64,000 bases of DNA from Trypanosoma brucei. Lineage: Eukaryota. The stretch lies in NCBI GenBank assembly GCA_000002445.1, contig CH464491.1:3488001-3552000 (forward strand), in the 5' to 3' direction. A program made the translations under genes and the position numbers. The notes under the pieces were generated by a model. The model had not been told where the DNA came from. It searched no databases and saw nothing but the letters and a program-made list of their open reading frames with translations. Below are positions 41,501 through 59,898 of this stretch, piece by piece. Each line of letters opens with the position of its first letter. The stretch's first letter is position 1.

Positions 41501-44500
41501 CAACGCGTTTGAAATCAAGATCCGATTTGGCACAGCAGGTCTCTGACCCTTCGGAAACATCAAATCTCCCCCACGTGGGCGCTTCATCCCAGTGGTTGCC
41601 TCTTCCGTGCAGGTGACATTCGCTATCGTCCGATGTTCCCCCTGTTGGTTCTGCCGCCTCTCGTGATCCACTTGAAGTTGCACGTGAGATAAATTGAAGT
41701 CAGTTGCTGTTGGTCTTTCTGGCATCTGTCGGCCACGAGCCTCCAGTTCCCGCTTCTCCTCCATCGTGAACTTTTCTTCCTGGAGGGCTAGTGACATGGC
41801 GGAACGGTTATGGGCCTCTTTTACCTCTCGAATAATCGCAGTTAACCAGTGAATGTCGGCATTGAGGAGCGGAATAAGCCTATCCCCTTGGAAGTGCGGT
41901 AATAACTTGCTAAACGCTGAATGGAGTCCCAACGTAAAGCTTTCGTCCCGCGGCAAAGAGCTGAGCACCCGGGCAACATATAATAACGATTCTGTGAAAT
42001 TGTGGGGAACGTAATAAATCCATCCCCCTAACACCGCTAGCATCAGCCGTTGTGCGCACCGACGCAGCAGCTGAGGGTCGCACCAGCGCTCCAGAAAACT
42101 CTGGAAGTCCTCATCAAGTCCGTTTACACTGTTGCCGCAGTCACTACTATCGCTGCTGCTAACGCTACTGCTGCGGCTGATCATGTTGTGGACGCTACAA
42201 GCAGCCGTGGCTGTTGGTGCATCGGCGGCCTGTCGTCTTGTTTGTGCCGCCCCTAACGTATAAGTCGTAATTGGTGGAAGCAGCACGATGACTTTGAGCG
42301 ATAGCTTACCGCAGAGGGCTGAGGATAGTGGAGAATGCTCCGCCACCAACGCACACAGCCACCACATTACCGTCAGAACCCAGTCCGCTACTCTTGACCT
42401 GTCGCATGCACTCATTACGTTTACCCACATAACTCCTCTTGCACGGGCCGCGTCATTCACTTTCTTCTCGTCGAGCAAAAGCGGGTAGTCGTTGAGCACC
42501 TCGTCGTTAAGAATGAGTTTCTGCATCATCCAGTTCGCCGCTTCGGTGTAGATGGCTTCTCTATGAGCGGCAATAGGAAAATACAGGTTTAGTATTGTCT
42601 CACCGACTTCATGCATGTTTTCGTTCCCGGAAAGAAACAAAACTCCAGCGAAGTGTCGAACGTGAGAATCCGAGGAAGAGGAAAGTGTCGCAGCCGACGT
42701 CCACGCGTCGTCGTCAACACCACTACGTGTACCAGGAGTATTTCCACCTTTTTTTGTGATCTTTCGTTGCTTCATCACAGCGCTCGCGGCTCCACGGAGT
42801 ACGCGGGCGACCTCACTCATACATTTATCCACGAGTGACGCAAGGGGTTGTGCGCCCCTTTCCTGTCCTTCTTGATTGCGCGAAAAAAGCCAAATACAAG
42901 CAGCAGGACACTCAACAAAAACAGTTAACACCTCCAGCATTGAAAAGAGCTGCAACTGCGGTGATGGCGAACTCGACGCTTCAGTGACCTCCAGCGCTGC
43001 CGTACAGACCCTCTCCAGCAACCGAGGAAACACTTCCCACAGATCCCGAAAACAGCCTGCGGGGAGCGACTCGTCCGTTTTGGTGAATGCTTCCACGTCC
43101 GCGCGCGCAAAGTGTCTCAGTAGTAGCACCACCGAAATAGTGTTTGAGGTGCGACGTAAAATTGCGAATGCAATGTCAGCGACGCCCCTCTGAATTGACC
43201 GAAGAAGGTTGTGGTGGCTCTGTGTCGCTACTACTTGTGGAACTTCATCTGAGAGAGAGCACATAACGTTGCTTAGTGTGTGAATCACCACTTCCATATT
43301 GCGAAATGCAGCGTCACTGCACCCACTTCTGGCGGTGCGTGCTGTTTGTTCCGCTGCTCCAAAGTTGATATATTTACCTATGTTCTTCGAAAAAAGAGTT
43401 GCAATCCAACCGGCCAATTTTCCTGGATGCGGTTCGTCTGCTGGTCTCCCAGAGGCGTCGACTGGGGCCCCGGTTTCCGGTGTAGATTTTGGGGGTTCGA
43501 TGTGCGCAGCCAACCACCACAACTCCCGCAGCCGTTGCCCATACCATTTTGCCCTTCGCTTTCCTTCACATTCACCTGCGTTTTTTCCATTGGTTATGAC
43601 CATGTGAAGAATGGTCCTCGCGACACTCATCCGCGGTTGGCCACTGGGTACCGATGCCGGAAGTGCCGTTCCGTCCTCCAAGCAAGCACTAAGCATCGTT
43701 GCCAGCAGTTCCGTCGTGGGTTTCGACAATTGCCCCTCTTTGGGATCCCTGGCACTGGAAAGTAACCAATGAATAATTGCACCACCTCCAAGTGTTAGTA
43801 CCACCCCTTCGGACACCTGAGCTAGAGCTAACATCGCGTGAGGTACATTGCTGGCACCTTCAACGCTGCCGCTGGGTGTTTCATGTCCTATCGCATACTG
43901 CTGCTTCAGTTCCTTAGAAATGTCCATGAGTTCTTTGTCTAGGGCACCCAAAAAGGCGAAAAGACTGCAAAATCCGTCGGCAACTGCGCACCGCACCTTT
44001 TCCTCTGCCACCGGCATGGGTATGCGCACGAGATGCCTCAACGTACACAACAACTGCAGGGAAACAAACCATACCGCCTTCGCTGCGGTAGCTGGTGTAT
44101 CAGCATCCCTTCTGAAGTGGCTCACTCCTGAGAGTTCTAGAAGTATCTTTCGGGACAAAAAGCGCACTACTCTGCGCCTGTGAAAGAGCAATAAGACCAG
44201 AGCACCGTGAAAAGCCGTGCTCTTCGACGCAGTAAGCAAACTCAGCAAATCAACGTCGGACCCTGTGGAGGCACCTTGTGCGAAGGACTCGCCGTAATCA
44301 GGTTTATCTGATAGGACGTGCTCGAGGGCCTTGTGCACTACGGGTGAGCTTGCTCCAAAGGTGGGCCCCACGGGGATTAGGCCACGCGATAGTTGTCTCA
44401 CCATTTCGGGAATTTCTTCTAGTGTGAGTTCACTCTCACATAGAACAACTTCTTCGCTAGCCCCTTTCCCACTTTCCGCTTTATCGTCAGTGCTCTGAAG

Positions 44501-44701
44501 CGGGCCATCCTCCTCAAGGACTTCCACTTTAGTTCCCTTCGGGTACGCAACGAGACATTGGTGCAACTTCCCGACGGGCGTGCATGGGTCCCTGGCTACC
44601 CATTCCGCCATGAACTGGGCGTACCCAAAATTGTCCGGAGCTATCAACCTCGGGAAATGAGTACAACCATGGTCATCCATATCCTTGTTCACAGATAACA
44701 A
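38600..44701 (-). CDS. Large Upf1-like superfamily-1 RNA/DNA helicase (Sen1/senataxin-like) with a ~1100-aa N-terminal extension
   Basis: 2033-aa ORF. The C-terminal helicase core carries motif I 'GPPGTGKTQT', motif II 'VVVVDEASQ', motif III 'VLVGDSRQLQPTV', motif IV region 'FRMHPSLCAFPNKYFYEGKL', motif V 'TTDSFQGKERDFVFISCVRA' and motif VI 'RINVALTRAREFCIVFG'. This is the Upf1/Sen1/Dna2-family signature. The N-terminal two-thirds are helical and leucine-rich with no motif I can recognise. Confidence 0.8.
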   Translation of the reverse strand: MLSVNKDMDDHGCTHFPRLIAPDNFGYAQFMAEWVARDPCTPVGKLHQCLVAYPKGTKVEVLEEDGPLQSTDDKAESGKGASEEVVLCESELTLEEIPEMVRQLSRGLIPVGPTFGASSPVVHKALEHVLSDKPDYGESFAQGASTGSDVDLLSLLTASKSTAFHGALVLLLFHRRRVVRFLSRKILLELSGVSHFRRDADTPATAAKAVWFVSLQLLCTLRHLVRIPMPVAEEKVRCAVADGFCSLFAFLGALDKELMDISKELKQQYAIGHETPSGSVEGASNVPHAMLALAQVSEGVVLTLGGGAIIHWLLSSARDPKEGQLSKPTTELLATMLSACLEDGTALPASVPSGQPRMSVARTILHMVITNGKNAGECEGKRRAKWYGQRLRELWWLAAHIEPPKSTPETGAPVDASGRPADEPHPGKLAGWIATLFSKNIGKYINFGAAEQTARTARSGCSDAAFRNMEVVIHTLSNVMCSLSDEVPQVVATQSHHNLLRSIQRGVADIAFAILRRTSNTISVVLLLRHFARADVEAFTKTDESLPAGCFRDLWEVFPRLLERVCTAALEVTEASSSPSPQLQLFSMLEVLTVFVECPAACIWLFSRNQEGQERGAQPLASLVDKCMSEVARVLRGAASAVMKQRKITKKGGNTPGTRSGVDDDAWTSAATLSSSSDSHVRHFAGVLFLSGNENMHEVGETILNLYFPIAAHREAIYTEAANWMMQKLILNDEVLNDYPLLLDEKKVNDAARARGVMWVNVMSACDRSRVADWVLTVMWWLCALVAEHSPLSSALCGKLSLKVIVLLPPITTYTLGAAQTRRQAADAPTATAACSVHNMISRSSSVSSSDSSDCGNSVNGLDEDFQSFLERWCDPQLLRRCAQRLMLAVLGGWIYYVPHNFTESLLYVARVLSSLPRDESFTLGLHSAFSKLLPHFQGDRLIPLLNADIHWLTAIIREVKEAHNRSAMSLALQEEKFTMEEKRELEARGRQMPERPTATDFNLSHVQLQVDHERRQNQQGEHRTIANVTCTEEATTGMKRPRGGDLMFPKGQRPAVPNRILISNALLQQRFQQQQQFLAASGVAEKRQNGSQSVGVSNLQLLRERKVREITQAKKLSQCHDAIRRIVGYTDFLRSPPPVSDIIGTGASCLAEEAPVIPESFATATDSGFTAYVSSFLPHIAVELRHELYHKFDEMLDGCRWRNRTGKNRPPEDIVYGDMIGEDEDNDTIHNSVVRGVVEGGTRPASWIVENSVSVVCTGNATVNPVDPTRMQFNITLANLGGEAKVLPSIGTVLLEGDVAVLMFPLGPLRSALPDAFGGCDTPTVWATMGCMPKICIVTVVQQGQSSATLTVFTPPKSKRPDLESSDGWNIPLIPFAQALRAFIMHKKHFYIKRLFPLGPSLAVVSALFDVQRRCIASTLMKPRLAARKAQEHARVLDTVLFETERWDTFAKKLLLRDCLDEFQARAVAVALVALVSEWEEQALGEKRLDAAPPDITIIEGPPGTGKTQTIAALTINLLKTLQEGKRVLLCASSNRAVDEVLLRLRSLLTRAPQLANRRLLRVGVRESVDPQVLAIRPAVFLDDCTDVTSDDAGGQQTFHAEMDTNGRPYGKRALPASADSSNVMLYGRSKKKDQIIRDASVVCTTIGSIPQIQRFLSEYDVVVVDEASQCTEPEALLALVLAKRRVVLVGDSRQLQPTVLSQKSAACGLRRSLLQRLLNEGHRPFTLLTQFRMHPSLCAFPNKYFYEGKLRTHESVLRRAIPASAVIHLATRTKLEKLPRLIFVDVHEGRMESSGKGGLRGTSVVNNTEAKVVAEHVRRFRKFLNLTVSEFAKHAGIITFYRAQREAIISNLTPEERRSEMQVATTDSFQGKERDFVFISCVRAPVRNGGAGTNNRSRYGSTLGFLQDWHRINVALTRAREFCIVFGHRQTFIDVAIVHRGKLSDKRRTEGGWGSTGTSVPITVSHQPELPMDEDDGNSDVETVEAPVLRPDDDPLVFEEMLRYAEKWPEQVSWFSNSQELNVLKELIRTV

Positions 44702-46214: not shown

Positions 46215-48197
46215 TCACAAGGCGGGAGCCTCAGCTTGTTCTTTTAGTGATTCCGAATTCTGACGGGAGGCGGTTATTTTCTCTTCATACCGCGCAATGA
46301 AAGACAGGAGCTCTTCCGTAATTTTCGCAATTTTCCCAACAACACCTTGTTCCACAGTGGTAAGGTACAATTGCGCATTTCCGGTTCCATCGCTCTTTGC
46401 CGTGTCGACCTCCGCGCACGCGAGCCCCAAGAGCTGCGGAAGGTGCTGCAGGAAGCGGACGAGGTAACACAAATGGGCCTCATCAAGCCAGCAGCAGGAG
46501 ACGTGACTACTCACCGCAGGTGCAGTGGGCAACAGGGAGGCATCGGCTACGGCCATCTGAGCAGCCTTTGCTGCCGCCCAATCGTACATCTCCGCCTTTT
46601 CCCGATTGTAGAGGACAATGTGGAGGAAAAGCCGCTCGAGTTGTTGCTTAATAAGGGTGACGTAGTCACAGTAAAGATTTTCCTCTTGCTGAGCGTACAT
46701 GAAGGGGTTGACAAAATCCTGAGATTCGCGTTGTGCCTTGTGGAAGCCACGCACAGAAATGATAAACGCATCGAGTACCGCGCGGCAGCTGAGCGCTGGC
46801 TCATACATTTGTGGGGCGTCACCACTCCTGTCAATCTCTGGGACCCCATTCGTGCCGCTCTTGTCATTTTCCAACCTGTGGATAAGTCGTGCATGTAGCG
46901 TTTCCCTATGCAAATGGTCTGATATCAGTCTGCGGCGCAGTGTACTCGGTGTGTTAAACACCGGTTGAAGAGCTGTGGGCTGAACTATGGGGGTAACCGT
47001 ATTGACAACGTTAACATGAGCGGACAAGGTGGGAATTCTTGCTGTTCCTGGTATCGTGGCCTTCCTTGGTGGGTTCATGGGCGTCGCAGTTGTGTGGGAG
47101 GGAGGAGAAATGCTTTGCGCCACGTTTTCCGGTGCCCCGACATCCCCTCGATTACTGCGCTCACTGCCTTCAATCTTCTGTTTTAACTGACTTTGCTGCA
47201 TTTTCTTTGCTTCCTGTACGTACACCTCAACACCAGTTCGTGTTCCCCTGAGGGAAGGATCAATACGGAGCACGAAATCATCAATCTTTTTGTGTGCAAA
47301 ATGATGAAAGGACGCCGCCCGTCGTTCCCACTCCACCACCCCCGCATTGAAGTTCACACAGTTCCTCACCATCAGTTCCACATCATCCCGCAGTGATGTC
47401 AGTGATTCCGCTATACTACTCCCCATGTAAAGTGTGGGGTCGTCCCCGGTTCGTCGTCGTCTATGTTGCTGCCCCAAGTAGTACCCGTTCTGTGCACGTT
47501 CCTTCATGATGATAAGGTTCATCTTCAGGGGGCACATAGCCTCGTAGGCGCTTTTCAACTCTGGGTACGCCTCCGCTACATCGACGGCAAAGGCGCCATC
47601 ATCCTCACGTCGATTCAATGAATCGACGAGTTTGATCAATTCCGCGCTTCTTCTATTGCTATCGTCCTCGCTGGTAGCAATACCATTCCCCCGACCCGGT
47701 TGCCGCCTCGAGGAGTCGTTATCCACAGCTTCCGGCCCTCTTTCCCTTGATTCCCCGTCACGACCGCGTTTGCCTGTAGAATGTTTCTCTGGGACCGACA
47801 CTGACGCCACACGGAAAGAGGAAAGGCGCCTGCCACCCACTTTCTGCGAAATATATGCATCTATTTTGCCCATTGCAAACTTCTCAAAGGTTCGTGCGGC
47901 ATCTGCATAGGCCCCCTCCGCGCCGTTAAAAAGGATGCAGTTGTTAACCATCAACCTGATGTCTTCCTTTAATGTCGTCAGCTGCACATCATATCCGTAT
48001 GCACCCTTCGCCGCGCGGTCAGCAGCCGTCGCTAGATCACATCGGTTTGGACACACCTTCGTGTAGCTTTCTGCAAGTTCCGGGTACTGCAATAACACAT
48101 CCTGTGAAAAAAGTCCATTTTCTTGTGGTCGGTCGAGCGAGCGGACGAGTGACACCATTTCCTCTCTGGGGTAAAGCAGCTGCCGGTTTTGACTCAT
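46215..48197 (-). CDS. Tandem-bromodomain protein (bromodomain factor, BDF-like)
   Basis: The ORF track gives 46215..48419. The probable start is 'MSQNRQLLYP...' at 48197, with ATG verified. The upstream 74 codons are encoded by a T/G-homopolymer spacer. BD1 is 'FSQDVLLQYPELAESYTKVCPNRCDLATAADRAAKGAYGYDVQLTTLKEDIRLMVNNCILFNG'. BD2 is 'FAVDVAEAYPELKSAYEAMCPLKMNLIIMKERAQNGYY...LRDDVELMVRNCVNFNAG'. Both fit the bromodomain ZA-loop and conserved Asn (NC..FN) pattern. Confidence 0.65.
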   Translation of the reverse strand: MSQNRQLLYPREEMVSLVRSLDRPQENGLFSQDVLLQYPELAESYTKVCPNRCDLATAADRAAKGAYGYDVQLTTLKEDIRLMVNNCILFNGAEGAYADAARTFEKFAMGKIDAYISQKVGGRRLSSFRVASVSVPEKHSTGKRGRDGESRERGPEAVDNDSSRRQPGRGNGIATSEDDSNRRSAELIKLVDSLNRREDDGAFAVDVAEAYPELKSAYEAMCPLKMNLIIMKERAQNGYYLGQQHRRRRTGDDPTLYMGSSIAESLTSLRDDVELMVRNCVNFNAGVVEWERRAASFHHFAHKKIDDFVLRIDPSLRGTRTGVEVYVQEAKKMQQSQLKQKIEGSERSNRGDVGAPENVAQSISPPSHTTATPMNPPRKATIPGTARIPTLSAHVNVVNTVTPIVQPTALQPVFNTPSTLRRRLISDHLHRETLHARLIHRLENDKSGTNGVPEIDRSGDAPQMYEPALSCRAVLDAFIISVRGFHKAQRESQDFVNPFMYAQQEENLYCDYVTLIKQQLERLFLHIVLYNREKAEMYDWAAAKAAQMAVADASLLPTAPAVSSHVSCCWLDEAHLCYLVRFLQHLPQLLGLACAEVDTAKSDGTGNAQLYLTTVEQGVVGKIAKITEELLSFIARYEEKITASRQNSESLKEQAEAPAL

Positions 48198-48292
48198 GGG
48201 CACGATCGGTGTTGCTGCGTCTCCATGCAAGAGAAATATATGTACAGAATTGTGGGTGGGAAGACAATATTGAAGAAAAAGATGTTTAAGTG

Positions 48293-48313
48293 TTTTTTTT
48301 TTTTGGGGGGGGG
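48293..48313. repeat. Abutting homopolymers T(12)G(9), which read C9A12 on the transcribed strand
   Basis: The sequence 'gttttttttttttgggggggggaagg' is directly visible. It lies about 100 nt upstream (in the minus sense) of the probable bromodomain-gene start at 48197. Confidence 0.9.
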
Positions 48314-48688
48314 AAGGAAACAGTGGAGAAAAACAGCAAAGAAATATCGGAGTAAAGGAAGTAAGTATTGCACCCGAACAACAGTAATAGAGTGTGTTCC
48401 GTCGAGCTTTCTGTTGCAATCAAATCCACGTCGCCACCATCATCGCCCACTTCTGGAAGATGCGACACAATGCCATACCATTTTCGATTCCACCAAATAG
48501 ACAACTTCTTTTTTTCATTTGAAAAGAAACCGTGCAACATAATATTCCATTTCCCTCCCTCAGGGACACTACCAGACACTGTCCCGGGGGTGTACACACA
48601 CTCCACTTTTTCTGCCTCGTGTGCATAAGTAAATGCGTCTGCGTGCCTTCTCCGCATGATGCGCAGAGATGCTTGTTTCCTTTTCGTT

Positions 48689-49534
48689 TCACACACGTGA
48701 AATTATTTGTTGCACTCGCATGTACTCATCCCCAGTTAGTGTTACAACGCCAGTAGCCCTCTTGCGGTCTCTGTCCTGCACCTCTGCTGAGCCCCGGGGT
48801 TGACAGCAGGACTGGCGGCGCCTCCTGGAGGGTGTAAAACACCTACCGACTTTCCCTGATGCAGGCGTCAGGGAAACTGTCGTGGCTGAAGTGGAAGGAG
48901 GTACGGAAGTTCCTTCACTTGGGTTTGGAACATGGGGGAAGCAGTTCAGCCGCGCGGGCAATGCGGTTGATGGAGCAGCACCTACACGTTTGGACGACGA
49001 GGCGCTACCCATATGTGACCTTACGAAGGGCCCTGAAGAGGGGCGTGACAACGTCGGGGCTCGATTCTTTCGGTGTTTGTCAGCCTTACGTCCGCTCACA
49101 GACCATCGAGGGACCTGTTGTGTGTCGTACCGACTCCAAGCGGCATCTAACAGTTTGATTGGTTGTTCAACGGTTGAAACGGACACCGTCGAGGTCCGTC
49201 GGAAAGAACCTGTTGTATATAAACCCTGCGGCCCCTCTACATTTTGACATTCCCCTTCTTTGATCGATCCCCCTTCGTCTATAGACACCATTACGTCTGC
49301 TGCGGGCTCCTGGTGTCGTATGTCAGCAACCTCTTCCGTCACACATCCGCTGCGATTTCCTTCTTTATTTTCGAGTGCCCTCCGGTGACAAGCATTAGTG
49401 GCACCGGACTCATCACAGATGTAGCCACGGCGCCGCAGTTCGTATGTATTTTCGTAGAGCTTGGCGGTTTCGCGCCGACGCGCTGCTCGCAACCGCTCCG
49501 CCGTTGTACAACCATCGGAACGAGGTGTCCACAT
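48689..49534 (-). CDS. Hypothetical protein (Ser/Thr/Pro-rich C-terminal half)
   Basis: 281-aa ORF with coding-like composition in the N-terminal half. No recognised domain. Confidence is moderate to low. Confidence 0.4.
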   Translation of the reverse strand: MWTPRSDGCTTAERLRAARRRETAKLYENTYELRRRGYICDESGATNACHRRALENKEGNRSGCVTEEVADIRHQEPAADVMVSIDEGGSIKEGECQNVEGPQGLYTTGSFRRTSTVSVSTVEQPIKLLDAAWSRYDTQQVPRWSVSGRKADKHRKNRAPTLSRPSSGPFVRSHMGSASSSKRVGAAPSTALPARLNCFPHVPNPSEGTSVPPSTSATTVSLTPASGKVGRCFTPSRRRRQSCCQPRGSAEVQDRDRKRATGVVTLTGDEYMRVQQIISRV

Positions 49535-50476: not shown

Positions 50477-51484
50477 TTATTCTGACCGCTGTTGTCTCTG
50501 TCGGTGTTCCCCATGCGGATGTTGATGCTGCCGTCGTTGTTGCTGCTGTTGCTGTGCCATTTGGTGCCTTAGCAGCGCCTCAACCATGTCCCTTTTGTCC
50601 CGGCACCGCTCTAAAGAGAGCCAATTAAGCCACATCAGGGTCCGGAGGTTGCGCACTGTCATGGCTTCCAGCTCCTCACGTGTTCGAAGGACTTTTGCAT
50701 CGGCGATTACACCCTCCTCCTCTCTCGGCACCCTACGGCTCGAATCACTTCCACGTTTGTTCTCAGCAAGTCTCAGGAAAGAGACATTTTCAGGATTTGC
50801 CCTTTCAGCCGCTGGAGATATGGAGTGGATGGGCTGACGTACCGAGGGGACAAATGCCCTTGGTACTAGCACGCGCGCAAAACGCGCAGCCCTATTAATA
50901 TACGCCGGTATTTTTTTAAGGCCTGCTTCCGGGAACTCTGCCTCGAGCGAGTCGCGGAATGCCTTTGTGAAATGATTGCAATTACGTCTCAGCATGTGGT
51001 ACTTACTTGCCTCCCACTCAGGGCGTAGCTTTCCCACTATAGCAAGAATTTGTCGTATACTTGTGCCTCGAGGTAGATACCCAAGCAACTTACTCTTTTC
51101 AAACAGATACTTTGGGAGCATTTCTCTTGGCCTACCACAAGTGATACCACAGACCCCAGGTATAGGACGTGTTGAGCCGCTGAATGCCCATTCCGTGGAG
51201 AAAATTTCCATACCGGTGTGATAAATGCCCAGACCAATACGTGCATTTAGATTGTATGTGGTTTTGTCCACCTTGTTCTGCAGATTGTAAATATTCAAAA
51301 ACACAGGTACACCCATGCCCACGCTTCTACATCGGCCCTCGTCCTCTGACGTTTCCGGGCTGCTTTGCTCACTTGATAGTTGACCACGCTTCGACTCTGC
51401 TGGGGGGCATTGCTGTTTCAGTCTAGTCGATTTGCTGTCCTTTAAACTCTTGCTAGAAGGCCTGCAACAGCCTCCGCCCATCAC
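50477..51484 (-). CDS. PPPDE-domain (DeSI-like) putative deSUMOylating/deubiquitinating peptidase, with a C-terminal extension
   Basis: 335-aa ORF. 'VFLNIYNL', 'YHTGMEIFSTEWAFSG' and 'YHMLRRNCNHFTKAFRDSL' match the PPPDE/DUF862 signature in human DESI2 ('VVLNVYDM', 'HSGIEVYGREFAYG', 'YHLMHKNCNHFSSALSEIL'), with the catalytic His and Cys retained. The ~90-aa C-terminal extension contains 'EELEAMTVRNLRTLMWLNWLSLERCRDKRDMVEALLRH', a possible helix-extended-helix motif, followed by a Gln/His-rich tail. Confidence 0.75.
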   Translation of the reverse strand: MMGGGCCRPSSKSLKDSKSTRLKQQCPPAESKRGQLSSEQSSPETSEDEGRCRSVGMGVPVFLNIYNLQNKVDKTTYNLNARIGLGIYHTGMEIFSTEWAFSGSTRPIPGVCGITCGRPREMLPKYLFEKSKLLGYLPRGTSIRQILAIVGKLRPEWEASKYHMLRRNCNHFTKAFRDSLEAEFPEAGLKKIPAYINRAARFARVLVPRAFVPSVRQPIHSISPAAERANPENVSFLRLAENKRGSDSSRRVPREEEGVIADAKVLRTREELEAMTVRNLRTLMWLNWLSLERCRDKRDMVEALLRHQMAQQQQQQRRQHQHPHGEHRQRQQRSE

Positions 51485-52558
51485 CTACACCAGTGTGCAC
51501 AGCAAACAGGATGGGTTGCTAAGCTGGCGGTTGAGATTTTCAATGCTTCGTATAAATAGCTAAAGTTTTTGACGTCGTTTCACACTCAGTTGTCTTGACC
51601 CTTGCAGTGGGAGGGGCGGGGTGTAGAGTTGCGCAACTGGACTTCGCCACCGGTACTGCACCTGCTTGCCGTCAACACCGCCACCACAAGTCCTATACTC
51701 TTCCTGCCTCCGCTCGCCGTTCGCTTTTATGCGGGGAGGACAAGGGTAACTGTACGCAGAGCTGCCCAAAATACTCACCACAATAGCGGAGAGATGTGTA
51801 GATGAACCTATGAATAAATATGTAAAAGAAAAAAGCGTATGCTGCCTTTTGTAACGGAAAGAGGAACACGAAAACGGCGCCACACAAACCGATTTGGATG
51901 GGGAAGGAGGGTGGTCAACACGACGGACTTCGGTTACTATGAAGTTGGGAAAATAGTTCGTGAGTGGTGTCTTGGGAAACACAATGCCAGTCGTCGTCAA
52001 CATCATCCGTTCGCAGCATCGCCTCATGCCTGCATGCAAACGGGTAAACGCAACGGGAAAATGTCATCACATTCCAAGCCACTCTGTCCTTGTGAACACT
52101 ATGAAGGGGAAACCAGTCGGAACGAACAAAACAAACAAGCGATAAGGAATACTAACAACGGTAACAGAGGATGAACCACGGGCACAACCATCGTGCAAGC
52201 AACGTCCACCAATGAATGCAGCCACTACGGAAGCATACCCGCAAGTTTATTCGTGCACACAATTTCCCGTGGCGATATGCACGATGATCGGCGATTGACA
52301 TTCACACCCTACGTCTTTCATCCCCCCACGATGCCATCAATAGCTTCTCCGATTTTATCGTGTTAAGAGTTTCATCTTCATACCACAATTAAACAAGGGA
52401 TTATCAACAAACAAACGCGTACCGCTGCCGCCTCTACCCCTGCGAACACCATCGACGAAAATTTATACCCCGATACCTCACAACACGGGAGACCGTTTAA
52501 CGACGCGTTTTTCTTGCCACAGATTCCCTTCCTCGTTGTTTGTGCTACTCACCCACAC

Positions 52559-53509
52559 CTACCTCCATTCCTTCTGCCACCTATCTGTACGGCTTTTCAC
52601 ATACTCATAAACAACCATTGAAACCCCACTGATGGGTCCAGCGCGTAGGAGCGAGACGCCGAGACCGCGGTATATGACGAGCGGTGATTCTCTTCGTAGT
52701 AGCTCCACCACTGCCAGCGTTCCTACGCACCGGGCTTGTACAATTGTCTTGACTGTGTCCAGAGGATACAGAAGTGCCCATGTGACCATAGACGCCGTAC
52801 AGCCGGCTACAAATGTCCACTCAGTGGGCAACCGTTCCTCAATTCCGGGCGACTCGGTGCCAGTACTCGAAGTACACCAAGCACGGAGCCACCGCCTGTT
52901 TACATCATAGAAACCCAAGTAGCACCCAGCGAAACACGTATCCTTCAGGAGGTGGTAACCGAATCCATGAAAGTAACCCTTGATTCCCTCACTGCGGAAA
53001 ATATTCGCAGCACACACCCATGCGTTCCTGGTTGATCTCCGCGTGGAGTATTGTGTCCTAAGTTTTATGACGTGGAAGGGACAGCCAATAAACGTTCCCG
53101 CAGCACCGGCACACGCACCCGAGCGAAACGGTGACTCTCCCAGCCACGATGCTACCGACCTCAGCAGCTCATTGACATGTAAACTCCGGAAGGGATGAGA
53201 GGCCATGGGGGTGGAGTGAGTCGCTCGCGGCGGTTTGTTACAACTTCTCTCTGCACGAATCGAATCCCACAAGGCATATTGCAGGCTACGCTTCGTTGCC
53301 GACATGATAAGCGGTGGACCGGTACCACGGTACAAACTTCGCACACCTTCCTCGCGTGCGACGTCCAACATGGTCTTCCACGCCGAGCGGGCCGCCAACG
53401 GACCACACGCCTGCGCACGCGTCTTTGCACTGTCAAGAGGCTGACCCAGAACAACAGTTGTCATACCTTGCGCTGCACCAGGCAGAAACGTGAGTGCCCA
53501 ATCAATCAT
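52559..53509 (-). CDS. Mitochondrial carrier family (SLC25) protein
   Basis: 316-aa ORF with a tripartite repeat. It carries the carrier signature Px[DE]xx[KR]: 'GQPLDSAKTRAQ' in repeat 1, 'CPFHVIKLRTQ' in repeat 2 (with F replacing D/E), and 'YPLDTVKTIVQ' in repeat 3. Six hydrophobic helices are predicted. Confidence 0.75.
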   Translation of the reverse strand: MIDWALTFLPGAAQGMTTVVLGQPLDSAKTRAQACGPLAARSAWKTMLDVAREEGVRSLYRGTGPPLIMSATKRSLQYALWDSIRAERSCNKPPRATHSTPMASHPFRSLHVNELLRSVASWLGESPFRSGACAGAAGTFIGCPFHVIKLRTQYSTRRSTRNAWVCAANIFRSEGIKGYFHGFGYHLLKDTCFAGCYLGFYDVNRRWLRAWCTSSTGTESPGIEERLPTEWTFVAGCTASMVTWALLYPLDTVKTIVQARCVGTLAVVELLRRESPLVIYRGLGVSLLRAGPISGVSMVVYEYVKSRTDRWQKEWR

Positions 53510-53910
53510 TCATCTATCTTTATTCTGTGTACTTCGTCTCTCCTGCCGTATCAAGGCAGTTAGTGCCTGTAAGTGTGTGTGTGGGGAGAGGGGTGAGGTA
53601 ACCCTAAAAAAGTCAGTAACGAAGAAGAACAATGATTTTGGCTGGGTGCACACAGGCATGCCTGGAACCTTCACTTTTTGACAATCGATGAAGAGAATAC
53701 CTTTTGCTGATGCTTCCGTTTTGTTCTGCTTGTTTGTGGATCATGACAGAACCCGCAAAAAAATCCAGAAAAAAGAAAAGATTAGGTAACAGACTTCGTG
53801 CATTTAAGCATGCTGGTGTCCTGTAGAGGCTTGAGAGGAGGAAAGGGGGGAGGGGAGGGGGAGGTCAAAAGCAAAACAAGCCGTAAACAAGCACTTCACA
53901 GATCCACGTT

Positions 53911-54738
53911 TTACCTGGTAACGGTAAAAGGCCTTACAACCCACTCGCTGTGCTCCTCTTTACATCCTGGACAAACAATTGGGAGCGGCTTCCCTTCCTT
54001 ATCTGACACCATAGGGACCAGCTCGCCATACTGATCCATACGCAGTAGCTCTCTGTTGCACTTGTCGCAGTAATACGCCATCAGCCTCCCTTTCGGACCC
54101 TGTTCCCTTGATGTGGGACTTTCTCTAGGGGCGTAGTTTCTCCACCGATCTTCTACTTCCTGCAAAATGCGCGTGATGTCTGCAGAAGTCTTTTTAAGAT
54201 CTCTTTCTGCTGGGGTACGTGCGGGAACGAAACCTGCTTGCTTCCCACTCTTTTGGTCGCTTATGACGTAGCTGTTTGATTGCTTAGAACGAATATTCGC
54301 ATGATTGTTGAAATCGTCAAATGGCACCGCGGGTTCCCAGTCATGGTGTAAAAGCATGCAGCGAGGGCAACTCATGGGTAGGGGTTCCCCAGAGGGGGAG
54401 TTAGTCAGTTCCAGTGGGTTTCCATTGTGGTCCATAGCGAGCACATAATAGCCGCACAGTCCACATTTCCATGAGATCTTTTTAGCTTTCGCCGGGGAGA
54501 TATAGGGTTCTTCATCCATGATCACAGATTGATCCATGATCAGCGGCTTACGGTCCTCCTCCTCCTCTCTGCGCCCCCTTTCACCATCTTCCGATACATT
54601 CGCGACGGTGGACCGTTCCGCCCCGCGACTGCTCCCTTCCGAGGCGGTGCCACTGACAATACCACTTCCCCCGATTGGGGCTCCCCTCGGTATGTTTTCT
54701 AACGTTTCCACATCACTTAACGTTGCACTACTCATCAT
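53911..54738 (-). CDS. Hypothetical zinc-finger protein with two internally duplicated CxxC...CPxC modules
   Basis: 275-aa ORF. Repeat A is 'CGLCGYYVLAMDHNGNPLELTNSPSGEPLPMSCPRCMLLHHDWEP'. Repeat B is 'YCDKCNRELLRMDQYGELVPMVSDKEGKPLPIVCPGCKEEHSEWVV'. The two share the pattern C-x2-C-x(8)-G-x-L-x(9-11)-PLP-x2-CP-x-C-x3-H-x-W. The N-terminus is Gly/Ser-rich. Confidence 0.55.
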   Translation of the reverse strand: MMSSATLSDVETLENIPRGAPIGGSGIVSGTASEGSSRGAERSTVANVSEDGERGRREEEEDRKPLIMDQSVIMDEEPYISPAKAKKISWKCGLCGYYVLAMDHNGNPLELTNSPSGEPLPMSCPRCMLLHHDWEPAVPFDDFNNHANIRSKQSNSYVISDQKSGKQAGFVPARTPAERDLKKTSADITRILQEVEDRWRNYAPRESPTSREQGPKGRLMAYYCDKCNRELLRMDQYGELVPMVSDKEGKPLPIVCPGCKEEHSEWVVRPFTVTR

Positions 54739-55739
54739 GTGCTTCTAATCCCCTCCCTCGTCCTCCCTGCTGGCTTGACGTGCGTGTGTGTGTGTGTGGG
54801 GACCGCCTATATCTCTTCGCAGGGAGAGAAAACGTATGTGGAAGTGCACAAAAAGACAACAAAGGTTAAAGCCAAACGGCGGAAAACACATTAAATGATC
54901 CGCATAGATGTAATGGTCAGGTATCCGAAGCCCGCTGTTGTTATTGTCAAGTTTTCAGAGCCACGGCCTACCGGTGAGGAGCAGCTCTAATGATACACAT
55001 AAACACATACAATTACAAACGCACAAAAAAGTAGAGATACGGGTGCGTTCCAACGCGTGTACACGCACACATGTTGTTGTGGACTCACTGAGGCACGTTC
55101 CACGAAAAGTACATGTATATAAATACATACATTTCATTAGTTCTTTCTTTACTTCTCTTCACATCGGTATTATTTCACTAAATCCCAAACGCATCCTTGT
55201 CGTCTCTGCCTTTTTTTGACCCCGTAAATTGGTGTCACCCATTACCCACCAATAACCAAGCAACTTTCCACATGCAGCTGCACTTTTTTCCATACACGCA
55301 TATATACATATGTTCTTTTCTCGCCTTTGCCTCACAATGACTGGAAGCACACAACAGGGAGAAAAACAGCAGTACACGATGCATATATATATATATATAT
55401 TTGGAAAAAGAGAAAAAAAATAATGAGCCGCTTGTTCAAAAACAAAGGAGAATAAATAAGGCTTCATTTCATGCAGCAGAGGCTGCTCGGGGGGTTGGGT
55501 TGGCACAAGCCATGAGGTCGAAAGGTGAAAAGAGTGTAGGCAGAAGGAATACTGCTATACAACGGAGTTGGGTGGGAAAGATACAAAACAACCGCAACAA
55601 ACCAAGTCACAAGCAACCAAAGAGAGACTTGTGTGCGTCGTGCCCCGCCTTAAAACCACTACACAGCGAAGAGACAAGGACCTATACATCACCTTTGCAA
55701 TATCAGCACTGCTGATGTTATCCCGAAGAACTCACCAGC

Positions 55740-57299
55740 CTATTTCAATTTTGAAGCTGTGCGTTTGGCGGATGTCGGCAAGCGCTCCCCCTTGCGTCCC
55801 ACTGGCTGACCAGGGACAACATCCGCAAGACCTTTCACGTCAATCATGCACACATCCACCACGTCTTCTCCCGGCGAAAGCCCACCCGTGACGTACACCC
55901 GCCTGCCCTTCCCCACCGCCAGTGAGTGAAGGCAACGGCTTGGAGTGTGGACCTCATTGGTGTCGCTTGTCCTAATCTTCACCCATGAGAGGGCAACGCC
56001 GTGTGCATCTTCTTCCAGCTGAATAATCCACGCATCCGACAGAATCTGACCACCAGCCCCAATCCCACCGTGGACAAAGAGCTCGCACGGGCTAAGCACA
56101 CACGCAGCATGCCCATACCTCGGCGCCGGCCCCATATTATTCACGACTGCTGAAGTGACTACCCATTTCTCGTTCTCCACGTCGTACACAGCAACGTCAT
56201 TACAGAACTCAAATTCCATACTTGGAATCACTATGGAAGCCCTGGGATCCACCTTCGAGGCCTTCTTGGCTTTTCCATGCGAGGTTTCCGTATTAACTCG
56301 CGCCTGTCGACCTCCGTACACAACAATGTACCGCTCCAGTAGCAAACCGGCAACATGAGAGGAGCGGGGATGGGGTTTTGAACCCCCTGTCTCATTTTTT
56401 GTTGACACCCCTCGTTCGATCCATCTGTTCGTTGTAAGATCTGCCTTTTCCATCGAAGACGTGCACCCCGCGCTATTATTACCGCCGAAAACATACACAA
56501 GGTTCTTGACAACGGTTGCAGTTGAGCACGACGAGGCCATCACAGGTGACGACGGCAAACTCTTAATATAGGCAACGGACCCAGTGCCCAGATCAATGCT
56601 TTTGCTGCGGTGGGCATACTTGGAGTCTTTCCACCCACCGACAAATAACACTACTGGGGCTTTTGCAGAAGCTCGCGCAGAGGCTGCGTGCGGTGCCTCC
56701 GCGCTTTCCCTATCCTCTGCCTTTTCTTTTTTAGGATCCCGTTTGTTCCTTTCGATTAGTTCCATTAACGTACCTGCGGGCTGAATCACTGGCGGGTTCT
56801 TCACTGCCGGTTCCTCATGCTGCGTCTTCCACTGTAGGGCAATTCCCGCCAACGTCGGCCATGTAAGATCCTGAAGCCCATTACTTGGGAAGGTGGCGCA
56901 AGTCTCTACCGGTGATTGGCCATCGCTACTTCCAGCACTTTCAGAACCTTCCCCAACAGAGTCCTTGTCAGCTGATTCGTGTAGACGTTGTGCCTCCTCT
57001 TCCTCTTCGTCACGTTGCGCAATCCACATCTGCTCTTCAGTGTTCCATGACTCTAGAAAGGGCATGGTTAGTGCGGACTTATCTTCGTGGGGCAGAGTAA
57101 GTGCCTTCGGCAGAGACGACACATCACACCCACCGACAACGCACAGGTGGCCATTTGCAGGGTGAATAAATGAGATGTGACCGATGCGCATCCCCGAAGG
57201 CGCGTTGACGGAAGAAGCGAGTTGTACCGTTGCGTCTAAAAGCCCTGGTGGCCTCTTGTCCACGGCCACATCACCCGGCTTGGAACGCTTGGGCGGCAT
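55740..57299 (-). CDS. Kelch-repeat (beta-propeller) protein
   Basis: 519-aa ORF with repeated Kelch-like blades: 'LVYVFGGNNS', 'YIVVYGGRQA', 'LFVHGGIGAGGQ', 'VYVTGGLSPGED' and 'HLCVVGGCD'. The di-Gly plus hydrophobic spacing with W/Y residues is typical of Kelch/galactose-oxidase propellers. Confidence 0.65.
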   Translation of the reverse strand: MPPKRSKPGDVAVDKRPPGLLDATVQLASSVNAPSGMRIGHISFIHPANGHLCVVGGCDVSSLPKALTLPHEDKSALTMPFLESWNTEEQMWIAQRDEEEEEAQRLHESADKDSVGEGSESAGSSDGQSPVETCATFPSNGLQDLTWPTLAGIALQWKTQHEEPAVKNPPVIQPAGTLMELIERNKRDPKKEKAEDRESAEAPHAASARASAKAPVVLFVGGWKDSKYAHRSKSIDLGTGSVAYIKSLPSSPVMASSCSTATVVKNLVYVFGGNNSAGCTSSMEKADLTTNRWIERGVSTKNETGGSKPHPRSSHVAGLLLERYIVVYGGRQARVNTETSHGKAKKASKVDPRASIVIPSMEFEFCNDVAVYDVENEKWVVTSAVVNNMGPAPRYGHAACVLSPCELFVHGGIGAGGQILSDAWIIQLEEDAHGVALSWVKIRTSDTNEVHTPSRCLHSLAVGKGRRVYVTGGLSPGEDVVDVCMIDVKGLADVVPGQPVGRKGERLPTSAKRTASKLK

Positions 57300-57861
57300 T
57301 ACTACCTTTCGTTTTTATTATGTCGTCTTTCCTTCCTATTATTTCCAACCTACGGACAAATATGCCCTCCTGCTTATGTGCACTTGCGGGATTCCTGGAA
57401 GACGCTCGCGAAGGCAAAATTAAATAAATGTGGATACACAGCATATAAATACATATATGTATTGGGGTCATCAAGGACGGCTTTTTGAACCAGTGCGTGC
57501 ATCGTCCGTTCAGGAACCGCCGTCCAAACCGATAGCGATTAAGTAGCACTATCTGCACTGGTGCAACTCCTGTTGAATGAAAGATTATGCCCCCTCTGGT
57601 TCCAGAGCAGGGGGAGGGGAAGGAGGGAAACTTGTAACAACAGATGAATCCGGAGACATTTGCTGCGTGCCGACAGGATGATGCGCCAACTATTTCCCTA
57701 CCCTTCGGCTTCTCTCCACAAACACGCGAATCCGGAGAAAAAGATAAAAAAAACCAACCAAGAGATCCTTTTGCGGTCCCAGAACCGTTTCACTCTTGGT
57801 TGTCTTTAAATGGGAACGGATTAGAGCACATGGTGACGCTTAGTTACCTCCTCCGTCAGCT

Positions 57862-58587
57862 TCACCGTACTGCCTTTCTGTCTATATCGTCGATCTTCTG
57901 GACCAAATCTTCGCCAAGAATACGTTCAGCCGTATTTGCGAGCCGGTTGACCCAACTGGGCATCAGGACGGGTACCTCGACTGACTGACCGCCTGAGAGC
58001 CGCACCACCTCGCGTTCACCGTTATCGTATACCTCCACAACGCTACTTGATCCGTCCTTCTTTTCTCTTGCCTGGTGCTGATCGTATCGCACGTCGGGGG
58101 GAAGCAGCCGCTTGGCAAACGCCTCTGAAAAAGAGTTACAGTTGTTCTTCACAATGTGGTAAGATCGACCGGACCACCGCTCTCTGTTTCCTTTCATCTC
58201 CTGCACTAAGCCAAGCACTTCCCCGCGCGTTAGCTGAGTCGTGCCCAACACCAACTGCTCGCGGAAGGTATGCGGAGGCGTGTTTTTTGGCTCCACTTGG
58301 AACACGCCTGTATCTTCTTCGCAGCGGCCGAAAGCAAATTCCATCCCGTACAATTCAACGCCGGTGTGGTGGACACCCGCTCCGGTGTAGTAGAGTATAC
58401 GGTTGGCTACCGTTATATCATACACGTTGAGGAAGACGGTGTTTGGGGGCAGGTCAGATCGCACTTTCCTGTCGTTTCCCCCGATATCAAGGCGGCCTAA
58501 GATGTTGGTAACCGTGGCAGCAACACCACTGGCCAGCCCTGCAAAGGGAGTGGCGGGTTGACCTTGTTCCATGCCTGTTCTGTGCAA
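57862..58587 (-). CDS. PPPDE-domain (DeSI-like) putative deSUMOylating/deubiquitinating peptidase
   Basis: 241-aa ORF. 'VFLNVYDI', 'HHTGVELYGMEFAFG' and 'YHIVKNNCNSFSEAFAKRL' match the PPPDE/DUF862 signature, with the catalytic His and Cys retained. It is a paralogue of the ORF at 50477..51484. Confidence 0.75.
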   Translation of the reverse strand: MHRTGMEQGQPATPFAGLASGVAATVTNILGRLDIGGNDRKVRSDLPPNTVFLNVYDITVANRILYYTGAGVHHTGVELYGMEFAFGRCEEDTGVFQVEPKNTPPHTFREQLVLGTTQLTRGEVLGLVQEMKGNRERWSGRSYHIVKNNCNSFSEAFAKRLLPPDVRYDQHQAREKKDGSSSVVEVYDNGEREVVRLSGGQSVEVPVLMPSWVNRLANTAERILGEDLVQKIDDIDRKAVR

Positions 58588-58914: not shown

Positions 58915-59898
58915 TCAAGGGGTCTCGTCATCGCTATCGTCTAGCACCACTACTTCTGCCATCTTCTGGTCTCCCTCGTCGTCGTCGTCGCTACTGCCGA
59001 TGACAATGACTTCCACCCCCGCCTTCCGGTTTGCTGACCCGAGACTTGGATGCTTTTTAACTTCATTCCGCTCCGTTTTCCCCCATTCAAATCCGTCAAG
59101 GGGACAGGTGACGTGCATTTTGTACTGCCGCTCAAAAAATCGTGCTTGGTCTAAGGCAGTAAAGTATGCCGACACCAGCTCTGCTTGCGGCACTTCCCCC
59201 GGGGGCAGAAGAACCAAAACCTCCCCATTCACGGTGGGATCACTCGAGACTATTCGCGTGGCAGTTCCACCGCCGTCGGTATCACTTGTTGCAACACACG
59301 ACAAACTGCGCACCTCGGCCCAGCGTTCCTCCGAGAGGCAAGCCTCAACAACATGACTGTTCGCCTTACAGCAGTCACTCCCCACCTGTGTGAAGGCAAT
59401 ATCTAATGCCACGCTCCGCAGTTCAGACTCGCTTGGACTATGTGGCGCCCCATGGTTTTTACTATCATACTTCTCTACCTTTTCCACCGACCCTTCGTCA
59501 GACGAACTCATCATCATCTCCAGGGGCACTGACGACATGCGGAGGAGTTGTATAATGTAACGCACATGCACCGGCACACCACAACACCACACGAGTACAA
59601 AAACATGCCGCCGAATGTCAGGAATGAGCCACCCGGATACATTCAAAGCGAAGGATGTGGTGTTCTCGTCCATGTACAAAACCGCACCCCGCCTAATCGC
59701 ATCCACAACTGTGGCGCTGCAATATGTAAGAATATACTTATGTTTGCAGATATAAAGCAAAAGAAGGGGGGAAAACACTGGACCCCGGCAACACCTCCTT
59801 CCTTTCGCCGCTGGCCAACCAAACCTTGTGACTAAGGAAAAGAAGAGAGTGAAAAGTGGAGGCGATGGACAAATAGTTGGGATAAGTAGGTAACGCAA
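58915..59898 (-). CDS. Hypothetical protein with two C-terminal SIM-like motifs (hydrophobic V/I core followed by acidic/Ser runs)
   Basis: 327-aa ORF. The first ~75 codons are low-complexity and probably spacer, so the real start may be the Met at about 59673 ('MDENTTSF...') or later. The C-terminal 'GVEVIVIGSSDDDDEGDQKMAEVVVLDDSDDETP' contains two [VI][VI]x[VI] cores flanked by Asp/Ser/Glu, which is the canonical SUMO-interaction-motif architecture. Confidence 0.45.
   Translation of the reverse strand: MRYLLIPTICPSPPLFTLFFSLVTRFGWPAAKGRRCCRGPVFSPLLLLYICKHKYILTYCSATVVDAIRRGAVLYMDENTTSFALNVSGWLIPDIRRHVFVLVWCCGVPVHVRYIIQLLRMSSVPLEMMMSSSDEGSVEKVEKYDSKNHGAPHSPSESELRSVALDIAFTQVGSDCCKANSHVVEACLSEERWAEVRSLSCVATSDTDGGGTATRIVSSDPTVNGEVLVLLPPGEVPQAELVSAYFTALDQARFFERQYKMHVTCPLDGFEWGKTERNEVKKHPSLGSANRKAGVEVIVIGSSDDDDEGDQKMAEVVVLDDSDDETP

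What the first reader, a model, noticed from the sequence alone, without database searches (positions are those of the whole stretch)
50477..58587. Two PPPDE/DeSI-type putative deSUMOylating peptidase paralogues 7 kb apart, one with an extra C-terminal module
The ORFs at 50477..51484 and 57862..58587 both carry the complete PPPDE signature: 'VFLN[IV]Y[ND][IL]', 'YHTG[MV]E[IL]...EF/WAF[GS]' and 'YH..[KR][RN]NCN[HS]F[TS].AF'. Both retain the catalytic His/Cys dyad. The first copy also has a ~90-aa tail containing 'EELEAMTVRNLRTLMWLNWLSLERCRDKRDMVEALLRH' followed by a poly-Gln/His run. That tail could be a helix-extended-helix (SAP-like) nucleic-acid or protein-interaction motif. Two DeSI-like enzymes in one PTU, with differing appendages, hints at sub-functionalisation, for example one chromatin-associated and one cytosolic.
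Basis: partly seen in the sequence, partly recalled or inferred. Interest (0 to 1): 0.5.

Follow-up and report, generated by a model that had tools for sequence, protein, structure and literature searches.

The report
Two annotated trypanosome PPPDE peptidase genes
The window carries two old, already annotated Trypanosoma brucei-group genes for PPPDE/DeSI-type cysteine peptidases, and the tail on one of them really is a SAP-like fold, but that protein looks lipid-anchored to membranes rather than chromatin-bound.

Summary
Two minus-strand genes, A (50477-51481, 334 aa) and B (57862-58572, 236 aa), match Pfam PF05903 (E 2.6e-23 and 6e-29). Their His/Cys residues align with the catalytic H38/C108 of DeSI-1. 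[quoted passage not shown]

A and B are only 31% identical, so they are ancient paralogues. The gene order B-Kelch-Zn-ribbon-carrier-A is conserved across Trypanosoma.

The chromatin idea is not supported. A and every full-length relative seen, from Trypanosoma to Neobodo, Trypanoplasma and Euglena, start with Met-Gly, an N-myristoylation signal. In T. brucei this is followed by Cys5/Cys6, candidate palmitoylation sites. Elsewhere this SAP subtype sits mostly in RING E3 ligases.

Best reading: A is a membrane-tethered Ub/SUMO isopeptidase with a protein-docking tail, and B is a soluble one. A thioesterase activity like that of CLN5 is the main rival. Low interest; the extra annotation is incremental.

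The parts
50477..51481 (-). Gene A: 334-aa PPPDE protein with SAP-like tail (stop codon 50477-50479)
   Evidence: ORF; ATG start. [quoted passage not shown]
51464..51478 (-). Codons Gly2-Cys6 of A (MGGGCC): predicted N-myristoylation site (Gly2) and palmitoylation sites (Cys5, Cys6)
   Evidence: M1 and G2 are invariant in all 7 A-type sequences, while the next ~50 residues are not conserved. MG is also present in P0028-P0032 (P0028's record has an upstream extension before its MG) and in 9 further full-length cluster representatives. Lipidation itself is inferred from the known NMT motif, not shown.
51308..51463 (-). Ser/Lys/Glu-rich, poorly conserved N-terminal region of A (residues 7-58)
   Evidence: pLDDT below 50; not conserved in alignment A1; composition.
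50873..51307 (-). PPPDE (Peptidase_C97) catalytic domain of A, residues 59-203
51218..51220 (-). Codon of catalytic His88 of A (GIYHTG)
   Evidence: Aligns with H38 of DeSI-1; invariant column; coordinates.
50978..50980 (-). Codon of catalytic Cys168 of A (RNCNHF)
   Evidence: Aligns with C108 of DeSI-1; invariant column; coordinates.
50681..50872 (-). Linker of A, residues 204-267
   Evidence: Residues 201-262 have pLDDT below 50; confidence rises from about residue 263. Length and sequence vary among orthologues.
50561..50680 (-). SAP-like (RNF34/RFFL-type) helix-extended-helix domain of A, residues 268-307
50480..50560 (-). Gln/His/Arg-rich low-complexity C-terminal end of A, residues 308-334
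   Evidence: 11 Gln in 27 residues. A comparable Gln-rich run is seen only in T. grayi among the orthologues; the others lack it.
57862..58572 (-). Gene B: 236-aa PPPDE protein (stop codon 57862-57864)
   Evidence: ORF; ATG start. [quoted passage not shown]
58102..58440 (-). PPPDE core of B, residues 45-157
   Evidence: PF05903 E 6.1e-29. Profile hit to 2wp7, E 8e-7.
58366..58368 (-). Codon of catalytic His69 of B (GVHHTG, second His)
   Evidence: Aligns with H38 of DeSI-1; invariant column.
58138..58140 (-). Codon of catalytic Cys145 of B (NNCNSF)
   Evidence: Aligns with C108 of DeSI-1; invariant column.
57928..58101 (-). Kinetoplastid-conserved insert (VEVYDNGEREVV..VEVPVLMP) plus the last PPPDE helix (SWVNRLA) of B, residues 158-215
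   Evidence: Conserved in 14 B-type sequences, as far out as Bodo saltans. The Pfam match stops at profile position 122 of 151, just before the insert.

Best explanation
The two genes are the T. brucei-group members of two ancient euglenozoan lineages of PPPDE (MEROPS C97, DeSI-like) cysteine hydrolases. They are inherited as a conserved syntenic pair within one polycistronic unit. In both, a His (A: H88; B: H69) activates a Cys (A: C168; B: C145). That Cys attacks the bond that links the C-terminal glycine of a ubiquitin-like modifier (SUMO or ubiquitin) to a substrate lysine. Protein B is a minimal enzyme and is probably soluble. Protein A has three parts. (i) An N-terminal Met-Gly-x-x-x-(small residue) motif that is N-myristoylated, plus Cys5/Cys6 in T. 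brucei that are palmitoylated, tethers the enzyme to a membrane. (ii) A disordered spacer follows the PPPDE domain. (iii) A C-terminal SAP-like domain of the RNF34/RFFL/MANF subtype acts as a protein-docking module that selects partners or substrates. What is shown here: family membership, the dyad, the tail fold, conservation of the architecture and the synteny. What is inferred: lipidation, membrane location, the Ub/SUMO substrate and the docking role of the tail.
Against: No biochemical or localisation data exist for these proteins in anything I could search. PPPDE entries were absent from the supplements of the L. donovani and T. cruzi N-myristoylome papers. That is only a weak negative, because coverage is partial and no Leishmania A-type orthologue was seen. 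The T. brucei tail scores below the Pfam cutoff (23.2 vs 27 bits). The whole-protein AF2 model is mediocre (mean pLDDT 59.8). Substrate specificity of PPPDE enzymes is disputed in general: SUMO, ubiquitin or acyl thioesters (PMC13015453). Cys at positions 5/6 is not conserved outside T. brucei and T. congolense, although a Cys sits at position 4 in T. conorhini, T. c. marinkellei, P0028, P0145 and P0181.
Confidence: 0.6

Rival explanations
1. The SAP tail binds DNA or scaffold-attachment regions, so A is a chromatin-associated deSUMOylase and B is the cytosolic one.
Against: The conserved Met-Gly start, with nearby Cys, predicts membrane anchoring. The closest relatives of the tail are the RFFL/CARP2 and MANF/CDNF SAP-like domains. 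The matched MANF and CDNF entries are complexes with the chaperone BiP (6h9u, 9i5y), so the known partner there is a protein. Among the best tail-profile hits this subtype co-occurs with RING fingers. I did not look for a nuclear localisation signal.
Confidence: 0.1
2. A (and perhaps B) is not a Ub/SUMO isopeptidase but an acyl-thioesterase, that is an S-depalmitoylase like the PPPDE-fold protein CLN5. Its own lipid anchor holds it at the membrane next to palmitoylated substrates.
Confidence: 0.15
3. One or both proteins are catalytically dead scaffolds, and the PPPDE fold is retained only for binding.
For: The T. brucei tail is more degenerate than in its orthologues. B has NCNSF where most orthologues have NCNHF.
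Against: His and Cys of the dyad are invariant in both lineages across Euglenozoa. The His after the Cys motif also varies in active DeSI-1, which has NCNTF.
Confidence: 0.03

Closest known systems
Mammalian DeSI-1/PPPDE2 (PDB 2wp7, 3ebq) and DeSI-2/PPPDE1
   Same: Same Pfam family, PF05903. The permuted papain order is kept, with His before Cys, and the dyad aligns with H38/C108. DeSI-1 is the best structural match. Sources name the orthologues 'desumoylating isopeptidase 2' or 'deubiquitinase DESI2'.
   Different: Sequence identity is only about 23%. A adds an N-terminal acylation motif, a long disordered spacer and a SAP-like tail. B adds a 44-residue N-terminal region and a kinetoplastid-specific insert of about 40 aa. 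Activity is untested.
Arabidopsis DeSI3a (membrane-bound PPPDE SUMO protease acting on FLS2)
   Same: It is a PPPDE enzyme that works at a membrane on a narrow set of substrates (PMC6759571). That is the mode of action proposed here for A.
   Different: Membrane association of A is only predicted from its MG(CC) motif. The review I read describes no SAP-like tail for DeSI3a. The two were not compared directly here.
RNF34/RFFL (CARP1/CARP2) SAP domain, PF23632, PDB 1y02
   Different: In RNF34/RFFL the module sits between a FYVE-like domain and a RING finger. Here it follows a PPPDE peptidase. The T. brucei copy is degenerate (ERCRDKRD instead of DGCxEKxD) and scores below the Pfam cutoff.
MANF/CDNF C-terminal SAP-like domain (PF10208 ARMET_C)
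   Same: Same fold and the C.EK.D motif. In the matched entries (6h9u, 9i5y) the domain is bound to the BiP nucleotide-binding domain, so it is a protein-binding SAP-like domain. That is a precedent for a role other than DNA binding.
   Different: MANF is a secreted/ER-lumenal protein with a saposin-like N-domain. No relationship outside the tail was detected.
CLN5 (PPPDE-fold lysosomal S-depalmitoylase, PDB 6r99)
   Different: 10% identity and no sequence-family match. CLN5 is a lumenal glycoprotein, whereas A is predicted to be cytosol-facing and lipid-anchored.

Membership tests
PPPDE / Peptidase_C97 (PF05903) | Match to the family profile above the curated gathering score (29.2 bits) | tested here: met
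   A scores 83 bits and B scores 101.2 bits.
PPPDE / Peptidase_C97 (PF05903) | Catalytic His-then-Cys dyad (permuted papain order) aligned with DeSI-1 H38/C108 | tested here: met
   A H88/C168 and B H69/C145 align with H38/C108 of 2wp7. The columns are invariant.
PPPDE / Peptidase_C97 (PF05903) | DeSI-1-like three-dimensional fold | tested here: met
PPPDE / Peptidase_C97 (PF05903) | Cys-dependent isopeptidase activity on SUMO or ubiquitin conjugates | not testable with these tools
   Needs recombinant enzyme assays.
SAP/HeH domain, RNF34/RFFL subtype (PF23632) | Match to the family profile above the gathering score (27 bits) | tested here: inconclusive
   The T. brucei tail scores 23.2 bits, below cutoff. 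The T. congolense orthologue scores 31.4 bits, above cutoff. Other orthologues give weak hits to PF22968, PF10208 and PF07498 of the same fold class.
SAP/HeH domain, RNF34/RFFL subtype (PF23632) | Significant sequence relationship to a solved member | tested here: met
   The tail profile matches 1y02 (CARP2/RFFL) at E 1.9e-5.
SAP/HeH domain, RNF34/RFFL subtype (PF23632) | Helix-extended loop-helix fold | tested here: met
SAP/HeH domain, RNF34/RFFL subtype (PF23632) | Binding of DNA/RNA or of a defined protein partner | not testable with these tools
   Needs gel-shift and pull-down experiments.
N-myristoylated (NMT substrate), dually acylated proteins | Gly at position 2 and a small uncharged residue at position 6 (established NMT motif); nearby Cys for palmitoylation | tested here: met
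   MGGGCC: G2, C5, C6. G2 is invariant in A-type proteins. Position 6 is S, T, A, G, C or I in nearly all of them; P0006 has Pro.
N-myristoylated (NMT substrate), dually acylated proteins | Experimentally detected lipidation | tested here: inconclusive
   No PPPDE entry in the supplements of the L. donovani or T. cruzi N-myristoylome papers. The T. brucei lipidation study is not held in the library.
CLN5-type S-depalmitoylase | Membership of the CLN5 sequence family | tested here: not met

The most novel reading that the evidence does not exclude
The myristoyl-PPPDE-SAP proteins of Euglenozoa may be lipid-anchored 'erasers' that share one docking module (the CxEK-type SAP-like domain) with a large set of RING E3 'writers'. 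The same partner or substrate would then be addressed by both enzymes at a membrane. Alternatively, they may be membrane-anchored PPPDE-fold S-depalmitoylases. Neither possibility has been described for trypanosomes in the literature I could search.
Probability: 0.15. Interest if true: 0.5.

Novelty: already known. Interest (0 to 1): 0.2.

Why it matters
It matters little as a discovery. Both genes are already deposited and named as PPPDE-domain proteins in the T. brucei group, and the precomputed Pfam domains stored for the T. congolense orthologue already list PF23632 alongside PF05903. The useful increment is annotation. Protein A belongs to a conserved euglenozoan architecture of acylation motif, PPPDE domain and RNF34/RFFL-type SAP-like tail, and that points to a membrane-tethered enzyme rather than a chromatin one. 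This matters for anyone studying SUMO/ubiquitin removal or depalmitoylation in trypanosomes, where only the SENP-type SUMO protease has received attention. It also warns against N-terminal tagging of this protein.

Tried and rejected
- Single-sequence phmmer of A and B against PDB sequences found nothing. Family profiles were needed.
- I searched the window for a third PPPDE copy like the tandem one in T. grayi. There is none.
- Literature searches for functional work on trypanosomatid PPPDE proteins gave only passing mentions.
- I looked for experimental lipidation in the supplements of the L. donovani and T. cruzi N-myristoylome papers and found no PPPDE entries. The T. brucei lipidation paper is not held. 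A DESI2/myristoylation search was uninformative.
It ran after that row was removed.
- The Pfam scan of 145 hits exceeded the residue limit and was repeated with 134.
- The afdb50 library was unavailable, so I could not obtain the T. brucei UniProt or gene identifier.
- I rejected a recent local duplication: identity is only 31%, and both lineages are present in distant kinetoplastids.
- I rejected a pseudoenzyme reading, because the dyad is invariant.
- I could neither confirm nor exclude A-type or B-type orthologues in Leishmania. None of the named hits was from Leishmania.
Full report
**What is there**

The region lies in a run of minus-strand genes, consistent with a kinetoplastid polycistronic unit. 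The second codon of the first ORF and the sixth codon of the second are ATG. Starting there gives proteins of 334 aa (A, MGGGCC...) and 236 aa (B, MEQGQ...). [quoted passage not shown] B is identical to its record. A differs at one residue, D14 against G14. The window is therefore T. brucei-group DNA, probably chromosome 11, since the T. congolense orthologue is TCIL3000_11_13790.

Yes. Both proteins match Pfam PF05903 (Peptidase_C97, PPPDE) far above the curated cutoff, at E 2.6e-23 and 6.1e-29. They are 31% identical to each other over 121 residues, E 3e-14. Single-sequence searches of PDB sequences found nothing. Profiles built from the orthologues of each protein hit mouse and human DeSI-1 (2wp7, 3ebq) at E 1.4e-8 and 8e-7.

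**The tail of A**

- The T. brucei tail gives a sub-threshold hit to PF23632 (RNF34/RFFL SAP domain; 23.2 bits against a cutoff of 27).
- The T. congolense orthologue passes the cutoff at 31.4 bits. Other orthologues give weak hits to the same fold class (PF22968, ARMET_C, Rho_N).
- A profile of eight tails matches residues 70-105 of CARP2/RFFL (1y02) at E 1.9e-5 and the MANF C-terminal SAP-like domain at E 4e-3.
- A tail-only AF2 model is very confident (pLDDT 95; short helix, helix, 10-residue loop, helix).

The Gln/His-rich end, residues 308-334, is low complexity. Among the orthologues only T. grayi has a comparable Gln-rich run.

A starts with MGGGCC. In the alignment of A-type proteins, M1 and G2 are invariant while the following ~50 residues are not conserved at all. 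The same Met-Gly start, usually with Ser, Thr, Ala, Gly or Cys at position 6 and often a nearby Cys, appears in every full-length relative recovered.
- Named sources are T. congolense, T. vivax, T. cruzi marinkellei, T. grayi (two tandem copies), T. conorhini, Neobodo designis, Trypanoplasma borreli and Euglena longa. Several environmental sequences show it too.
- The few hits without MG begin inside the PPPDE domain and look like truncated gene models.
- B-type proteins never start with MG.

By the established N-myristoyltransferase motif, this predicts N-myristoylation of Gly2. In T. brucei and T. congolense it also predicts palmitoylation of Cys5/Cys6. That is inference. I found no experimental record.

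**Company kept by the tail**

A profile of the tail searched against 1.84 billion representative proteins found 1460 hits at E <= 1e-3, many with 2-6 tandem copies. I scanned the 134 best hits against Pfam.
- 112 match ARMET_C, 78 match SAP and 66 match RNF34L-like_3rd.
- About 47 carry RING fingers.
- 15 carry a PPPDE domain.

Named examples of the multi-SAP proteins come from a brown alga and a haptophyte. This SAP subtype is therefore mainly an accessory of ubiquitin-system enzymes, both E3 ligases and PPPDE peptidases. The solved MANF and CDNF relatives are complexes with the chaperone BiP, so their partner is a protein (entries 6h9u and 9i5y). That argues for protein docking rather than chromatin binding, though it does not exclude the latter.

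**Evolution and synteny**

At 31% identity, A and B are old paralogues. B has an orthologue in Bodo saltans, and A-type proteins reach euglenids. In T. grayi the order is B, a 525-aa gene (the Kelch protein by position), a 300-aa gene, the mitochondrial carrier, a 344-aa gene, A, a 169-aa gene and then a second A-type copy. The window has B, Kelch, a Zn-ribbon-like protein, the carrier and A. Locus tags in T. vivax (TRVL_00465 and 00469) and T. c. marinkellei (MOQ_005554 and 005549) show the same spacing. The 7-kb pairing is inherited synteny, not a recent duplication.

**Mechanism**

Shown here:
- membership of the PPPDE family;
- an intact His/Cys dyad in the permuted order;
- the SAP-like fold of the tail;
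- the conserved three-part architecture of A.

Inferred:
- both are Cys-dependent hydrolases of ubiquitin-like isopeptide bonds;
- A is lipid-anchored at a membrane and uses its tail to dock a protein partner;
- B is soluble.

PPPDE enzymes have been reported as deSUMOylases, as deubiquitinases and, in the CLN5 work, as palmitoyl thioesterases (PMC13015453; preprint 10.64898/2026.09.16.752001). Plant DeSI3a is a membrane-bound PPPDE SUMO protease (PMC6759571). A thioesterase role for a lipid-anchored PPPDE is the main rival. The chromatin model is a weaker one.

**Verdict**

The family and fold assignments are correct. The chromatin-versus-cytosol speculation is not supported. The genes are already annotated as PPPDE proteins, and no paper I could search treats them functionally. 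The new points are the acylation motif, the SAP subtype and the conservation of the architecture across Euglenozoa, and these are incremental annotation. Interest is low.

Noticed in passing
L001:11620-12402 (T. grayi contig JMRU01000090.1): T. grayi has a second A-type PPPDE gene in tandem, two genes downstream of the first. It has MGNVSSS at the start, HNCIHF at the catalytic Cys and a degenerate SAP-like tail. The T. brucei-group window has no counterpart.
   Followed up: partly
window 53911-54738 (-): A 275-aa protein with no Pfam hit contains two copies of a CxxC...CPxC zinc-ribbon-like unit of about 50 aa. The copies are 31% identical (E 3e-11). It lies between the two PPPDE genes, and a 300-aa gene holds the same position in T. 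grayi.
   Followed up: partly
window 57928-58101 (-), within gene B: B-type PPPDE proteins share an insert of about 40 aa (VEVYDxGEREVVxLxxGxxVxLPVLMP) between the catalytic-Cys helix and the final WVNRLA helix. It is conserved across the trypanosome B-type sequences and much longer and more divergent in Bodo saltans. The Pfam model does not cover it.
   Followed up: no
proteins P0073-P0217 (hits of the tail profile): The CxEK-type SAP-like module is very widespread (1460 representative proteins). It often occurs in 2-6 tandem copies and is fused to RING fingers. Named examples come from a brown alga (Sphacelaria) and a haptophyte (Prymnesium).
   Followed up: partly
window 38600-44701 (-), 46215-48419 (-), 55740-57299 (-), 52559-53509 (-): Neighbouring genes of the same transcription unit are a 2033-aa SF1 helicase (AAA_11/AAA_12), a bromodomain protein, a Kelch-propeller protein and a mitochondrial carrier. 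None has an evident functional link to the PPPDE genes.
   Followed up: partly
window 51440-51442 (-), codon 14 of gene A: The window encodes Asp14 where the deposited representative (P0001) has Gly14. The window is therefore from a T. brucei-group strain or subspecies slightly different from that record.
   Followed up: no
window 48689-49534 (-) and 58915-59898 (-): The ORFs flanking the two PPPDE genes (281 aa and 327 aa) have no Pfam match. They were not examined further.
   Followed up: no
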